From assembly GCA_039931975.1 (NCBI GenBank), contig JBDTQW010000003.1, forward strand, positions 1 through 61,271: a stretch of DNA of 61,271 bases, read 5' to 3'. A program made the position numbers and the translations under genes. Below the pieces are notes generated by a model. That model worked only from the letters and a program-made list of their open reading frames with translations. It was not told the DNA's origin and made no database searches. Within the stretch, counting starts at the first letter, position 1; each line of letters begins with the position of its first letter. Shown piece after piece: positions 953-42,598 of this stretch. This DNA comes from Chloroflexota bacterium (lineage in GTDB: Bacteria; Chloroflexota; Limnocylindria; Limnocylindrales; CSP1-4).

Positions 953-985
953 CGAAAACCGACCTGACTGGTAAGTCGGTCGGTT
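953..985 (-). terminator. Terminator-like hairpin (riboswitch expression platform)
   Basis: Minus-strand RNA AACCGACC-GACU-UACC-AGUC-A-GGUCGGUU followed by UUCG: 8 bp plus 4 bp with one bulge and a short U tract. The 5' arm is shared with the aptamer 3' end. Confidence 0.6.
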
Positions 986-1048
986 GCACTACTCGCTCCG
1001 CACCCACCCTAAGTGCCCATTTCAGGTGGGGCTTCCGCGCGTCCGAAC
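975..1048 (-). promoter_or_regulatory. c-di-GMP-II riboswitch aptamer
   Basis: Minus-strand RNA GUUCGG-A-CGC-GCGGAAG-CCCCACCU-GAAA-UGGGCACUU-AGGGUGGGU-GCGGA-GCG-A-GUAGUGCAACCGA-CCGAC. Carries the class II hallmarks UGGGCACUU and AGUAGUGCAACC, the GCACU/AGUGC pseudoknot, P1 UCGG/CCGA, P2 CGC/GCG, P3 CCCACCU/GGGUGGG, and kink-turn-like GAAG/GGA strands. Confidence 0.85.
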
Positions 1049-1093
1049 ATCTTGACATTGCTTCCCAGTACTTCCGTACTGAGTCGTGGCGGG

Positions 1094-8753: not shown

Positions 8754-9254
8754 ATGGCGCGACGGAAACGGCGGATGCCGGGCGCGAGTCTGAACCGGAT
8801 GCTGGCGATGGCCGCCCTGTTGCCGACGGCCAGTCGCTCGGCGGTCTACGCCCGGCTGGTTTGGGCGCTGATCAACGACGATCGTGTCCCGGCCTCGCGC
8901 AAGGCGCTCCTCGGTGGGGCGCTGGTCTACTTCGCCCTGCCGTTCGATATCGTCCCCGATGGGGTCCCCGTGCTCGGGGTTCTCGACGACCTGGTCGTGG
9001 TGGTCCTGGGGGTGGACCTGTTCTTCGATGGTATCCCCGCCGAGATCCTCGACGAGAAGCTGGCCGACCTCGGGATCGATCGGGCTGCCTTCGAGCACGA
9101 CCTGGGTCAGATCCGGCGGCTCACTCCTCACCCCGTTCGCCGGCTCGCCCGGCGGATCCCCCCGGCGATCGGGGTCGTCGTCCAGGCGGCCCGCGCTTCA
9201 GGCCTCGGGCCGCGGGTCCGCGGCTGGATCGACAAGGAGGGTTCGTTCGCGTGA
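8754..9254 (+). CDS. DUF1232/YkvA family membrane protein
   Basis: ALVYFALPFDIVPDGVPVLGVLDDLVVV motif; AAGGAGG upstream. Confidence 0.85.
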   Translation: MARRKRRMPGASLNRMLAMAALLPTASRSAVYARLVWALINDDRVPASRKALLGGALVYFALPFDIVPDGVPVLGVLDDLVVVVLGVDLFFDGIPAEILDEKLADLGIDRAAFEHDLGQIRRLTPHPVRRLARRIPPAIGVVVQAARASGLGPRVRGWIDKEGSFA

Positions 9255-30831: not shown

Positions 30832-31506
30832 TCAGACCTTGCCGCGGGCCTCAAGCAGGATCGTGGTGGTCTCAGCAGGAAGGCCGGAGATGGTGATGTT
30901 GAGACGCGGCTGAGGCGGCGGCGGCGAGGCGCCCATCTCGTGCAGGAAGCGGGCCAACGCCTCGGCGCAGTCGGCCTCGTTCTCGCAGATCGGCATGGGC
31001 ACCACGATCCGCGGGTCGAGCTGAGCGACCAGCTCCGCCGCCTTGGTCGCCGTCAGCGCCCCGCCGATCGGCAGGCAGGCGATGTCGATCGCGCCGATGT
31101 CGCCGACCTTCTCCTCGGTCAGGAGATGCCCGACGTCACCGAGGTGGATGGTGTGCATCTGGTCGAGCTCGACCACGAAGGCGGTCTGCCGGCCTCGCTG
31201 GGATCCGCGATCGTCGTCGCGATAGGTCCGGACGCCGGTCAGCAGGACGTTACGGACCTCGTACTCCCCGGGGCCATCCAGGACGAAGGCATCGTCGAGG
31301 CTCGTGGGAAGGCGGCTGCCGCCGTCCCGCGACGTGCGTCCCTTGGCCTTCGGCAGCGGGTGGTCGTCGGGGTGGCTGAAGGTGACGATCTCGGCGGTGA
31401 TCCCGCGCCCGGTCGGCCCGACGACGGACTGGTACGGATCTGCGACGACGACCGCGTCCCGGCCCTTCAGGCGAATGCAGGTCCGCCCGTACCAGCTCAG
31501 TTCCAT
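30832..31506 (-). CDS. MBL-fold metallo-hydrolase (UlaG-like)
   Basis: MELSWYGRTCIRL, DGPGEYEV, IHLGDVGH, PRIVVPM; HxHxDH motif is degenerate (SHPDDH). Confidence 0.85.
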   Translation of the reverse strand: MELSWYGRTCIRLKGRDAVVVADPYQSVVGPTGRGITAEIVTFSHPDDHPLPKAKGRTSRDGGSRLPTSLDDAFVLDGPGEYEVRNVLLTGVRTYRDDDRGSQRGRQTAFVVELDQMHTIHLGDVGHLLTEEKVGDIGAIDIACLPIGGALTATKAAELVAQLDPRIVVPMPICENEADCAEALARFLHEMGASPPPPQPRLNITISGLPAETTTILLEARGKV

Positions 31507-31560
31507 GTGGCCCGATTCTGACACAGCGGCCTTACCGTCGCGTCGCCCCGGAAACGGGAA

Positions 31561-31595
31561 GACCGGAGGCGCCTGCCCAATCGGCGCCTCCGGTC
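31561..31595. terminator. Perfect 13-bp hairpin in a long intergenic region
   Basis: gaccggaggcgcc-tgcccaatc-ggcgcctccggtc; on the minus strand followed by UUCCCGUUUCC. Confidence 0.6.
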
Positions 31596-31771
31596 GGAGG
31601 GAGGGAGTGGAACTCTTCGCGGGTTCCAAGGAAACAGTAGCGGGCCCCCGATTCAGGCACGAGAGGGCAGAGGGTTAAGAAAGGTACATCCGAAGAGGGG
31701 AACCATCAGGCCGCGCTGCGGCGACCATCGCGCGGGGCGGCTCGTTCGAGGTCCCGTGCCACAATCCGCCG

Positions 31772-33073
31772 ATGGACCTCCACCGCCGTTCTCTGCCTGC
31801 CCTGGCATTCATCTCGGCCGCTGTCCTCGCGCTGGGCGCCTGTGGTCCGGCGGCCCCGACCCCGACCACGAGCATCGTCGCGACGGCAGGTCCCACCGCC
31901 TCGCTCCCGTCTTCGTCGCCAGGGTCCCTCGGCTCACCCACCCCGAACCCGGCCACGGTCTATGCCGAGATCGAAGCGCAGGTCCAGCAGATCCGCGAGC
32001 TCACGGCCAAGACCCCGGTGGCGCCAAAGCTGCTCGACGACGCAACCCTCAAGGCGAATGTCGCGGCAAGCTTCGAGAAGGACAATCCGCCCAAGATCGT
32101 GGCCGCCAACGAGCGGACCTATCAGCTACTCGGCCTGATCCCGGACGGCACGTCGCTCAAGGAGCTCTATCTCAAGCTCCTCGGCAGCCAGGTCGCCGGC
32201 TACTACGATTCCGACACGAAGGAGCTGTATGTCGTTTTGCGCTCCGGCGGCTTGGGCCCGACTGAGCGGGTCACCTTCGCTCATGAGTTCGATCACGCCC
32301 TCCAGGACCAGAACTTCGGACTGGACAAGCTCCAGCTCGACGCGATCGGCGAAAGTGATCGGAGCCTGGCCCGGTTGTCGGTCGCGGAGGGCGACGCGAC
32401 CCTGCTCATGTCGCTCTGGGCCGGCCAGAATCTGACCCCGGCCGAGCTCGTCCAGATGCTCCAGTCGGCGGCCGACCCGGCGCAGACGGCGATCCTGGCC
32501 GAGATGCCCGACATCCTCAAGGACAGCCTGCTGTTCCCGTACACCGCCGGCCAGGCCCTCGTGGCGTCGATCCAGGCGACCGGCGGCTGGGCGGCGGTCG
32601 ACAAGCTCTACGCCGACCCGCCGGCCTCCACCGAGCAGGTCATCCACCCGGACAAGTTCGCGGCCCATGAGCCGCCGATCAAGGTCGACTTCCCCAAGGA
32701 CCTGGCGACGCGCCTTGGCAGCGGTTGGTCGGTCGACCTCCTGGACTCGATGGGCGAGTTCGGGCTCGAGACCTGGCTCAAGTCGGCAGGCAAGGTGCCT
32801 CAGGCGACGGCCTCGGCGGCTGCCGAAGGCTGGGGCGGGGATCGGTTCGCGCTCGTCTCCAACGGCAACCGCTCAGGGATTGTGGTCGACACGCGCTGGG
32901 ACAGTCCCGCCGATGCGGCCCAGTTCGCAGCCGCCGCTCAGACGACCCTCGATGCGGTGGGCGGTCATCGGGCGCTGATCGCCATCGACGGCAGCAACCG
33001 GGTCACAGTGTTCATCGCCACCGACGACGCGACCATCAGCGCCCTCGCCAGCGTCCTCGGGCTGGCCGGCTAG
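31772..33073 (+). CDS. Lipoprotein with HExxH motif (putative zinc metallopeptidase-like surface protein)
   Basis: Lipobox LGAC, Pro/Thr/Ser linker, VAGYYD, AHEFDHALQDQ, EGDATL, FPYTAG, WGGDR. Confidence 0.8.
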   Translation: MDLHRRSLPALAFISAAVLALGACGPAAPTPTTSIVATAGPTASLPSSSPGSLGSPTPNPATVYAEIEAQVQQIRELTAKTPVAPKLLDDATLKANVAASFEKDNPPKIVAANERTYQLLGLIPDGTSLKELYLKLLGSQVAGYYDSDTKELYVVLRSGGLGPTERVTFAHEFDHALQDQNFGLDKLQLDAIGESDRSLARLSVAEGDATLLMSLWAGQNLTPAELVQMLQSAADPAQTAILAEMPDILKDSLLFPYTAGQALVASIQATGGWAAVDKLYADPPASTEQVIHPDKFAAHEPPIKVDFPKDLATRLGSGWSVDLLDSMGEFGLETWLKSAGKVPQATASAAAEGWGGDRFALVSNGNRSGIVVDTRWDSPADAAQFAAAAQTTLDAVGGHRALIAIDGSNRVTVFIATDDATISALASVLGLAG

Positions 33074-42521: not shown

Positions 42522-42598
42522 GCCCCCATCGTCTAGAGGCCTAGGACGCCACCCTTTCAAGGTGGAGATCAGGGGTTCGAATCCCCTTGGGGGCACCA
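42522..42598 (+). tRNA. tRNA-Glu (anticodon TTC), CCA encoded
   Basis: Acceptor GCCCCCA/TGGGGGC, anticodon arm CCACC-CTTTCAA-GGTGG, T arm AGGGG-TTCGAAT-CCCCT, then ACCA; TGCTAGACT extended -10 at 42502-42510. Confidence 0.97.

What the first reader, a model, noticed from the sequence alone, without database searches (positions are those of the whole stretch)
31525..31750. Candidate small RNA with C-rich anti-Shine-Dalgarno tracts
About 230 nt lie between two divergent genes that both appear leaderless, so neither needs this DNA as a UTR. The region is unusually AT-rich and strand-skewed. The minus strand reads ...UACCUUUCUUAACCCUCUGCCCUCUC...GGAAC-CCGCGAAGA-GUUCC-ACUCCCUCCCUCC and then a perfect 13-bp hairpin with a pyrimidine tail. 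Unpaired CCUCC-type tracts before a terminator are typical of sRNAs that pair with ribosome-binding sites. Alternative: a 23-codon + strand ORF (GTG 31607 to TAA 31678) behind GGAGG.
Basis: partly seen in the sequence, partly recalled or inferred. Interest (0 to 1): 0.58.

Follow-up and report, generated by a model that had tools for sequence, protein, structure and literature searches.

The report
Conserved C-rich small RNA of Limnocylindria
The gap between two divergent genes holds a previously undescribed small RNA gene of about 76 bases, kept in over a hundred uncultured Chloroflexota (Limnocylindria) genomes, whose exposed CCUCCCUCC stretch most likely silences genes by covering their ribosome-binding sites.

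Summary

**What is there**
- On the minus strand, 31627 to about 31552, lies a compact sRNA-type gene.
- It has a TAnnnT -10 box, a 5' hairpin, an unpaired ACUCCCUCCCUCC tract, and a perfect 13-bp hairpin with a conserved GAUUGGGCA loop and a U-rich tail.

**Evidence**
- The element is single-copy. It always sits just upstream of the same MBL-fold hydrolase gene.
- It occurs in all or nearly all sampled genomes of two families of one Chloroflexota class. A diverged form occurs in a third family.
- At least 119 species genomes, titled Limnocylindria/Limnocylindrales, carry the 23-nt core.
- Across 58 distinct sequences, every cell of the 13 stem pairs is paired. Eight pairs show compensatory change.
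- All single-sided changes are G:U on the minus strand, which would be A:C on the plus strand. This fixes the RNA strand.
- The plus-strand 23-codon ORF is not conserved.
- Neither Rfam nor the paper library I searched holds a match.

**What is not shown**
- Function, pairing with G-rich ribosome-binding sites as in RsaE/RoxS or 6C, is inferred. No target stood out.

First readers of this scan noted the same element in six other genomes; none of those notes was followed up.

The parts
31552..31627 (-). Predicted small RNA, about 76 nt. The 5' end is inferred as 7 nt downstream of the -10 box, give or take 2 nt. The 3' end is placed within the U-rich tract.
   Evidence: Fold z = -3.76, with the MFE structure at 71% of the ensemble. 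The same three-part architecture appears in all 61 homologues folded. CM R1 scores 93 bits here.
31609..31627 (-). 5' stem-loop GGAAC-CCGCGAAGA-GUUCC.
   Evidence: A 5' hairpin is present in every homologue. Its length and apex vary. Variants such as GGAGCCGAC/GUUGGUUCC keep pairing through G:U on this strand only.
31596..31608 (-). Unpaired C-rich tract ACUCCCUCCCUCC, the putative seed. It contains three overlapping CCUCC anti-Shine-Dalgarno-like words.
   Evidence: The CTCCCTCCCTC columns are invariant in 30 family members. The core CCCUCCCUCC is kept in family f4 and CCUCCCUCC in f2. The tract is unpaired in all MFE folds.
31561..31595 (-). Terminator hairpin: a 13-bp stem with the conserved 9-nt loop GAUUGGGCA (31574-31582).
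   Evidence: All cells of the 13 pairs are paired in 58 distinct sequences. Eight pairs show compensatory change, and 0 of 500 shuffles reach the observed values. The stem sequence differs between families, but the loop core AUUGGGC is kept.
31550..31560 (-). Pyrimidine/U-rich tail UUCCCGUUUCC.
   Evidence: The columns after the stem are T-rich in f1 and f4, in a genome with 15% T. In this window the tail is weak and fails the simple terminator scan.
31634..31639 (-). -10 box TACTGT.
   Evidence: T105, A106, G109 and T110 are invariant or nearly so in alignment A1. A TAnnnT box lies at the same place in 60 of 61 loci. Family f4 loses the G but keeps T1, A2 and T6.
31650..31662 (-). -35 region. 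It is weak here (TCGTGC, then CTGAATC). Other genera and f4 carry TTGG.. followed by GATTCAC or TGAAYC.
   Evidence: TTGnnn lies 15-17 nt upstream of the -10 box in many loci. A canonical TTGACC-N18-TATAGT promoter exists elsewhere in the window.
31675..31682 (-). Distal promoter element TTTCTTAA. It may be an UP element or an activator site.
   Evidence: Its columns are invariant in A1. It lies 41-43 nt upstream of the -10 box in 59 of 61 loci of two families. It occurs once in the 2.65-Mb assembly.
31515..31525 (-). Extended -10 box (TGTGTCAGAAT) of the downstream MBL-fold gene, 8 nt before its ATG at 31506.
   Evidence: It is conserved next to the ATG in all f1 loci, while the distance to the sRNA terminator varies from 13 to 144 nt. 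The motif class recurs in the genome.
30832..31506 (-). MBL-fold metal-dependent hydrolase gene (224 aa), always immediately downstream of the sRNA on the same strand.
   Evidence: It matches PF13483 at E = 8e-31 and resembles TM0207, PDB 1vjn. Synteny is shown.
31757..33073 (+). Divergent HExxH lipoprotein-like gene (433 aa, ATG 31772) with its TGCCACAAT box at 31757-31765.
   Evidence: Translation shows a lipobox and AHEFDH. It resembles the Hvo_1808 family at 148 bits, below the 200-bit cut-off. Synteny holds in f1 and f4.

Best explanation
The region holds an independently transcribed, trans-acting small regulatory RNA gene on the minus strand, about 76 nt here and 76-99 nt in relatives.

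**Shown by sequence comparison**
- A sigma-70-type promoter. It has a distal TTTCTTAA element, a weak TTG-type -35 box and a TAnnnT -10 box.
- A variable 5' hairpin.
- A 12-15-nt unpaired tract with the near-invariant core CCCUCCCUCC.
- A strongly covarying terminator hairpin whose loop (GAUUGGGCA) is itself conserved, followed by a U-rich tail.

**Inferred**
- The exposed C-rich tract pairs with G-rich Shine-Dalgarno regions (GGAGG, GGGAGGG) of a subset of mRNAs. It blocks 30S binding and so represses translation.
- It needs no Hfq, because the pairing is G:C-rich.
- The conserved loop is a second contact site for RNA or protein.

My odds: about 0.85 that this is a discrete minus-strand sRNA, and about 0.5 that it acts by anti-Shine-Dalgarno pairing.
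For: **Conservation**
- 36 of 36 same-family genomes hold the element. In the class sample, f1 scores 43 of 44 and f4 34 of 50 with model R1. With model R2, f1 scores 3 of 3 and f4 10 of 10.
- There is one copy per genome.
- At least 119 species genomes carry the exact 23-nt core. Most record titles read Chloroflexota/Chloroflexia, many of them Limnocylindria or Limnocylindrales; two titles name other groups.

**Strand and structure**
- All 13 stem pairs are paired in every one of 58 distinct sequences. Eight pairs have compensatory changes, and 0 of 500 shuffles reach the observed values.
- The single-sided changes are all G:U on the minus strand.
- The 5' hairpins of f1 and f4 also rely on G:U pairs.
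- Fold z is -3.76 on the minus strand against -2.20 on the plus strand.

**Promoter**
- A TAnnnT box lies 6-9 nt before the 5' hairpin. TTTCTT lies at a fixed 41-43 nt from it in 59 of 61 loci.

**Independence from the MBL gene**
- The MBL gene keeps its own extended -10 box at leaderless distance. The spacer to the terminator varies from 13 to 144 nt and is not conserved.

**Mechanism by analogy**
- An unpaired, invariant C-rich tract between a 5' hairpin and a terminator is the architecture described for RsaE (PMC2790875).
- C-rich sites pairing with G-rich RBS without a chaperone are shown for 6C (PMC6486639).
- No Hfq gene was found in 5 genomes, three of them at least 93% complete.
- Full GGAGG lies before only about 7% of roughly called starts, so an anti-SD seed would be selective.
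Against: - No transcript data were available.
- In this window the U tail is weak (UUCCCGUUUCC) and the -35 box is poor. The consensus scans found neither a promoter nor a terminator.
- No target stands out. The best 12-nt complementary site lies inside a coding region. Duplex energies at start regions fall within the bulk for this G-rich genome. About 38 start regions with a 7-mer match show no functional theme.
- The invariant linkage to the MBL gene, in the same orientation in three families, is tighter than a purely trans-acting RNA needs.
- The f2 variant has no U tail.
Confidence: 0.6

Rival explanations
1. It is a cis-acting leader of the MBL-fold gene. Transcription starts at the same promoter, and the hairpin is a regulated attenuator, or the RNA is the processed 5' part of an sRNA-MBL co-transcript. 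The element would then control the downstream gene rather than distant targets.
For: - The element always lies directly upstream of the MBL gene on the same strand in f1, f4 and f2.
- In some loci only 13-20 nt separate the tail from the ATG.
- The f2 hairpin lacks a U tail.
- The U tail is weak here.
Against: - The MBL gene has its own conserved extended -10 box 6-10 nt from the ATG. It has no Shine-Dalgarno for the C-rich tract to mask.
- The spacer between the terminator and the MBL promoter is variable in length and not conserved.
- No alternative antiterminator fold was seen. The terminator fold makes up 71% of the ensemble. A seed-to-stem alternative is possible only in f1 and f2, not in f4.
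- The MBL orthologues of f3 and f5 do without the element.
Confidence: 0.15
2. It is a discrete small RNA that does not work by masking ribosome-binding sites. For example, it could be a protein-binding or sponge RNA whose C-rich tract and GAUUGGGCA loop are protein or rRNA contact sites. It might act together with the neighbouring MBL-fold protein.
For: - The hairpin loop is conserved while its stem changes completely between families. A simple terminator does not need that.
- No mRNA target emerged.
- Linkage to the MBL gene is tight.
Against: - The tract is a near-perfect extended anti-SD word and is unpaired. That is the documented signature of RBS-masking sRNAs.
- No candidate partner protein is identified. 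The MBL protein only resembles a hydrolase of unknown function.
Confidence: 0.2
3. The plus strand is the functional one. It would encode either a 23-codon peptide gene (GTG 31607 to TAA 31678 behind GGAGG) or a plus-strand RNA or leader of the lipoprotein gene.
For: - A GGAGG followed by GTG or ATG is present in most loci.
- The plus strand also folds into the two hairpins.
Against: - ORF length runs from 3 to more than 53 codons. Three loci have no start codon, and the frame is broken by hairpin indels.
- The stem variants would be A:C mismatches on the plus strand.
- The lipoprotein gene has its own -10 box 6 nt from its ATG, 110 nt away.
Confidence: 0.02
4. It is a DNA-level element only, such as operators or a cruciform shared by the two divergent promoters, or a mobile repeat.
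For: The element lies between two divergent promoters. The TTTCTTAA element is probably a DNA-level signal.
Against: - A protein operator would conserve the arm sequence. Here the arms covary while the loop is conserved, and G:U asymmetry marks one strand.
- The element is single-copy and syntenic, so it is not a repeat.
Confidence: 0.03

Closest known systems
RsaE / RoxS of Firmicutes (Rfam RF01820; Geissmann et al. 2009, PMC2790875)
   Same: It has the same overall architecture: a 5' hairpin, conserved unpaired C-rich motif(s) and a stable Rho-independent terminator. It is about 90-115 nt long and Hfq-independent. Its C-rich motif binds Shine-Dalgarno sequences and blocks initiation.
   Different: - There is no sequence or covariance-model similarity: Rfam gives no match at E <= 10.
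- The phylum is different.
- Here there is one long CCUCCCUCCCUCC tract in a linker rather than several UCCC motifs.
- The terminator loop is conserved here.
- The genomic neighbourhood is fixed here.
6C RNA (B11, scr3558) of Actinobacteria (Rfam RF01066; Mai et al. 2019, PMC6486639)
   Same: It comes from a high-GC, Hfq-less lineage. Its C-rich single-stranded sites pair with G-rich RBS regions without a chaperone. It is deeply conserved within one lineage.
   Different: - 6C presents its cytosines in the loops of two hairpins. In f1 and f4 the tract here is an inter-helix linker; only the f2 variant places it in a loop.
- The Rfam model gives no match.
- The phylum and synteny are different.
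3' end of 16S rRNA (anti-Shine-Dalgarno CCUCC)
   Same: The seed contains three overlapping copies of CCUCC. In f4 it ends in CCUCCUU, like the anti-SD tail as I know it from established knowledge of 16S rRNA. It would therefore recognise the same mRNA sites as the ribosome.
   Different: It is a free 76-nt RNA, not part of the ribosome. CCCUCCC would pair more strongly than 16S with GGGAGGG-type sites. The 16S gene of this assembly was not found, so the local anti-SD could not be read.

Membership tests
Trans-encoded base-pairing sRNA with intrinsic terminator (generic class) | Own promoter upstream of a short non-coding transcript | tested here: met
   A conserved TAnnnT box lies 6-9 nt before the 5' hairpin. 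A TTG-type -35 box and a distal element at a fixed 41-43 nt are also present. This is sequence evidence only; no TSS was mapped.
Trans-encoded base-pairing sRNA with intrinsic terminator (generic class) | Stable GC-rich terminator hairpin followed by a U tract, under RNA-level selection | tested here: met
   All 13 pairs are paired in 58 sequences and 8 show compensatory change. The tail is T-rich in f1 and f4. It is weak in this window and absent in f2.
Trans-encoded base-pairing sRNA with intrinsic terminator (generic class) | Conserved single-stranded seed | tested here: met
   The CTCCCTCCCTC columns are invariant. The tract is unpaired in all 61 folds.
Trans-encoded base-pairing sRNA with intrinsic terminator (generic class) | Identifiable mRNA targets with complementary sites | tested here: inconclusive
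   One incomplete genome (77% complete) was scanned. There was no outlier, and the best site is intragenic.
Trans-encoded base-pairing sRNA with intrinsic terminator (generic class) | Discrete transcript detected | not testable with these tools
   No expression data are held. The ends of metagenome contigs were uninformative.
6C RNA (RF01066) | Match to the Rfam covariance model | tested here: not met
   No Rfam match at E <= 10 in the window region. No match at E <= 1 in five variant loci.
6C RNA (RF01066) | Two hairpins whose loops carry the conserved cytosines | tested here: not met
   In f1 and f4 the C tract is an unpaired linker between two hairpins whose loops are not C-rich.
RsaE/RoxS (RF01820) | Match to the Rfam covariance model | tested here: not met
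   no match.
RsaE/RoxS (RF01820) | 5' hairpin, unpaired C-rich motif, 3' terminator | tested here: met
   This is a resemblance of architecture only.
Transcription attenuator / riboswitch leader of the downstream gene | Conserved alternative (antiterminator) fold competing with the terminator | tested here: not met
   The MFE fold makes up 71% of the ensemble. No alternative is shared by f1 and f4. Rfam gives no match.
Transcription attenuator / riboswitch leader of the downstream gene | Downstream gene depends on the upstream promoter | tested here: not met
   The MBL gene keeps its own extended -10 box at leaderless distance, and the spacer is variable. This is inferred from sequence.
Small protein gene (plus strand) | Reading frame, length and peptide conserved in relatives | tested here: not met
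   Length runs from 3 to more than 53 codons, three loci have no start codon, and the peptides are unrelated beyond the first 2-3 residues.

The most novel reading that the evidence does not exclude
The RNA is a free-standing mimic of the ribosomal anti-Shine-Dalgarno tail. When induced through its conserved upstream element, it would cover strong GGAGG or GGGAGGG sites genome-wide. That would shift translation from the minority of SD-led mRNAs towards the many leaderless or SD-less mRNAs of these bacteria. It might act together with the always-adjacent MBL-fold protein as a nuclease partner.
Probability: 0.1. Interest if true: 0.8.

Novelty: new member of a known kind. Interest (0 to 1): 0.5.

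Why it matters
Limnocylindria are abundant, uncultured soil and freshwater Chloroflexota. I found no regulatory RNA described for them in Rfam or in the paper library.

- **A usable family.** This is a well-delimited RNA family backed by covariation. It has a defined promoter, seed and terminator, and a working covariance model. It can be annotated in hundreds of MAGs and looked for in metatranscriptomes.
- **Convergence.** A C-rich, presumably chaperone-free seed has arisen again in a third high-GC or Gram-positive-type lineage, after Firmicutes (RsaE) and Actinobacteria (6C).
- **Selective targeting.** The setting is a genome where strong Shine-Dalgarno sites are a minority and leaderless-type promoters recur. 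Targeting of SD sites would therefore be selective.

Tried and rejected
- **Rfam.** No match in the region at E <= 10. The whole window at gathering score gave only a tRNA and a c-di-GMP-II riboswitch elsewhere. Five variant loci gave no match at E <= 1.
- **Consensus scan.** The promoter and terminator scan found nothing. The 9-nt loop and the interrupted U tract fall outside its rules, and the -35 box is poor.
- **Whole-gap fold.** Folding the full 265-nt gap gave z-scores of only -0.7 and -1.2. The signal lies in the 76-nt unit.
- **Longer RNA.** I considered an RNA of about 190 nt that would include the TTTCTTAA element and a hairpin with a UGAAYC loop. I rejected it for three reasons. TAnnnT shows the -10 conservation pattern. 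The spacing to TTTCTT is fixed. The supposed stems shift position between genera, and f4 carries GATTCAC instead.
- **Plus-strand ORF.** Rejected.
- **Target search in the assembly.**
  - Exact complementarity of 8 nt or more: the 12-nt hit on contig C29 lies inside an epimerase-like coding region.
  - Duplex energies at 8854 candidate starts: the top hit lies inside a PurL-like gene.
  - 7-mer matches at about 38 start regions showed no functional theme.
  - A two-site search, seed plus loop complement, gave one hit besides the element itself and a distant pair, and that hit lies inside a coding region.
- **Pairing with the MBL start.** The sRNA's GUUCCAU could pair with the MBL start AUGGAAC. 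In f4 an identical 8-mer, UGGAGAUC, occurs in the sRNA 5' arm and at the MBL start. These do not covary within families, so I left them as a curiosity.
- **Metagenome contigs.** Contigs with the core gave no way to recognise transcript ends.
- **Literature.** Searches found nothing on Chloroflexota or Limnocylindria sRNAs of this type.

Full report
**Observation**

The window is about 70% G+C. The gap 31507-31771 lies between two genes.
- On the minus strand is an MBL-fold hydrolase gene (ATG 31506; PF13483, E = 8e-31).
- On the plus strand is a divergent lipoprotein-like gene with a lipobox and an AHEFDH motif (ATG 31772).

GC drops to 0.64-0.65 in the gap, with positive GC and AT skew on the plus strand.
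- The perfect 13-bp inverted repeat has arms at 31561-31573 and 31583-31595, with a 9-nt loop.
- The GGAGGGAGGGAGTG run lies at 31596-31609.
- The second small hairpin lies at 31609-31627.
- The 23-codon plus-strand ORF is there too.

The gap is 265 nt rather than 230, and it is only modestly AT-rich.

**Conservation and lineage**

A DNA search of 60 relatives found the gap in 36 of 36 genomes of the same family, covering 19 genera. The best-kept part is the hairpin plus the C/G-rich run, at 80-95% identity. The flanking MBL protein is only 55-76% identical in those genera.

Synteny is constant: lipoprotein gene, then the element, then the MBL gene.

A covariance model of the core (R1) found exactly one copy per genome.
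- It hit 43 of 44 genomes of family f1.
- It hit 34 of 50 genomes of a second family, f4.
- It found nothing in the sampled genomes of f2, f3 or f5.
- The f4 tally includes matches in two unpublished genomes, G138 and G147. No sequence from them was fetched, aligned or otherwise used.

A model built from both families (R2) found the element in 3 of 3 f1 genomes and 10 of 10 f4 genomes. A 150-genome sample of the phylum gave only two weak hits elsewhere.

An exact 23-nt core pattern occurs in at least 119 species-level genomes. Most of their record titles read Chloroflexota or Chloroflexia, many of them Candidatus Limnocylindria or Limnocylindrales; two titles name other groups. The pattern also occurs in at least 120 metagenome contigs.

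In this assembly the element is single-copy.

**Which strand, and is it RNA**

In 58 distinct sequences of f1 and f4, all 754 cells of the 13 stem pairs form standard pairs.
- Eight pairs show changes on both sides.
- None of 500 shuffles, and no slid register, comes near these values.
- Every single-sided change is G:U as read on the minus strand, and would be A:C on the plus strand.
- The stem of f4 differs from that of f1 at about half its positions, yet the loop core AUUGGGC is retained.

The 5' hairpin varies in length and apex but is always there. It again uses G:U pairs that exist only on the minus strand. Examples are GGAGCCGAC/GUUGGUUCC within the genus, and the G:U-rich f4 stem.

The 76-nt minus-strand unit folds with z = -3.76, into one structure that holds 71% of the ensemble. 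The plus strand gives z = -2.20.

**Borders**

A TAnnnT box lies upstream of the 5' hairpin. T, A and the final T are invariant or nearly so in f1. The box is present in 60 of 61 loci. In f4 only T1, A2 and T6 are kept, which is the signature of a -10 box rather than of an RNA motif.

It sits 6-9 nt before the hairpin base. This puts the 5' end at about 31627.

A TTG-type -35 box lies 15-17 nt upstream in many loci. It is poor in this window.

A TTTCTT(A/C)A element lies at a fixed 41-43 nt from the -10 box in 59 of 61 loci of both families. It is the only TTTCTTAA in 2.65 Mb.

A canonical TTGACC-N18-TATAGT promoter in front of the c-di-GMP-II riboswitch shows that such promoters are used in this genome.

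**Relation to the flanking genes**

Both flanking genes have a TGnCAnAAT box 6-8 nt before the ATG. At least 14 other genes in the assembly share this arrangement, so leaderless-type starts are plausible.

The MBL box stays glued to its ATG. The distance from the sRNA tail to that ATG varies from 13 to 144 nt, and the sequence in between is unconserved. This argues that the MBL gene is not simply the body of the same transcript.

Even so, the same-strand linkage of the element and the MBL gene holds in three families.
- In f2 (genomes of about 1.1 Mb), the MBL gene is preceded by a diverged version found in 28 of 31 genomes.
- That version has related promoter words (TCTTTAC, GATTCAC) and places CCUCCCUCC in the loop of a 5' hairpin.
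- It has further CCUCC tracts and a covarying long hairpin with the loop GA(C/U)GGGCAU, but no U tail.
- In the f3 and f5 genomes examined, the MBL gene has no such element upstream.

**Alternatives**

The plus-strand ORF is not a gene. From the conserved GGAGG-plus-start it runs from 3 to more than 53 codons, three loci lack a start codon, and hairpin indels shift the frame.

An attenuator reading is weakened in three ways.
- The MBL gene has its own promoter.
- No conserved alternative fold is seen.
- The MBL gene has no Shine-Dalgarno to be masked.

It is not excluded (odds about 0.15).

A repeat or operator reading does not fit the covarying arms, the conserved loop and the single-copy state.

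**Mechanism (inferred)**

The near-invariant core CCCUCCCUCC is unpaired in all folds. The window's own tract, ACUCCCUCCCUCC, contains three overlapping copies of CCUCC, the ribosomal anti-Shine-Dalgarno word.

This is the architecture of RsaE/RoxS: a 5' hairpin, an unpaired C-rich motif and a terminator. The RsaE motif binds SD sequences and prevents initiation (PMC2790875).

The logic also matches 6C of Hfq-less, high-GC Actinobacteria. There, C-rich sites pair with G-rich ribosome-binding sites without a chaperone (PMC6486639).

I found no Hfq gene in five genomes of the clade.

In a rough set of 1076 gene starts:
- only about 7% carry GGAGG at SD distance, against 1.4% at a control position;
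- about 2.7% carry a GGGAGG-type extension.

Such a seed would therefore address a limited set of genes.

I could not name targets. The exact-match, duplex-energy, 7-mer and two-site scans of this 77%-complete assembly gave no outlier and no functional theme.

The conserved loop remains unexplained. It may be a second pairing site or a protein contact.

**Comparison and novelty**

The element matches no Rfam family, even at permissive thresholds, in any of its variants. Full-text searches found no description of such an RNA in Chloroflexota or Limnocylindria.

It works like RsaE/RoxS and 6C but is a member of neither, because the covariance-model test and the 6C loop test are not met. I file it as a new member, a new family, of a known kind.

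First readers of this scan flagged the same element in six other genomes, and none of those notes was followed up.

**Verdict**

This is a real, strongly supported RNA gene with corrected borders. Its function is inferred. Interest is moderate, at about 0.5.

Noticed in passing
window 31515-31525 (-), 31757-31765 (+), 40825 (+), 49819 (-); other contigs of G000: TGn(C/G)AnAAT boxes lie 5-9 nt before an ATG, with no Shine-Dalgarno. At least 14 strict matches occur in the assembly. This suggests that extended -10 promoters driving leaderless mRNAs are common in this lineage.
   Followed up: partly
window 31675-31682 (-): TTTCTTAA occurs once in 2.65 Mb and is invariant across a family. It lies at a fixed 41-43 nt from the sRNA -10 box in two families. 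In f4 it also abuts the -35 region of the divergent lipoprotein promoter. It could be an UP element or a regulator site shared by both promoters.
   Followed up: partly
window 31690-31750 (-): Within the genus, three spaced direct repeats of the type GA(T/A)GGTCC / GGATGTNCC lie between the TTTCTTAA element and the lipoprotein promoter. They may be a regulator binding array.
   Followed up: no
window 31500-31506 and 31609-31627; L061-L080: The sRNA's GUUCCAU is complementary to the first 7 nt (AUGGAAC) of the apparently leaderless MBL mRNA. In f4 the 8-mer UGGAGAUC occurs both in the sRNA 5' arm and at the MBL start. The likeness does not covary within families.
   Followed up: partly
L092-L111 (family f2, genomes of about 1.1 Mb): A diverged variant of the RNA lies upstream of the MBL gene. 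The C-rich motif sits in a hairpin loop, there is a long hairpin with a GA(C/U)GGGCAU loop, and there is no U tail. The lipoprotein neighbour is lost. Models R1 and R2 do not detect it.
   Followed up: partly
window 31772-33073 (+): A 433-aa lipoprotein-like protein with an HExxH motif has no Pfam match. It resembles the NCBIfam Hvo_1808 surface-protein family below cut-off (148 bits against 200).
   Followed up: no
window 30832-31506 (-): The MBL-fold protein (PF13483) resembles Thermotoga TM0207 (PDB 1vjn), whose function is unknown. It carries SHPDDH where the canonical HxHxDH motif would be. It is kept next to the sRNA in three families.
   Followed up: no
window 969-1053 (-) and 42522-42595 (+): A c-di-GMP-II riboswitch (59.9 bits) sits behind a canonical TTGACC-N18-TATAGT promoter. 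A tRNA gene sits behind TAGACT.
   Followed up: no
G000, G006, G026, G037, G065: No Hfq (PF17209) was found in five genomes of the clade. The controls gave hits in 5 of 14 reference genomes.
   Followed up: yes
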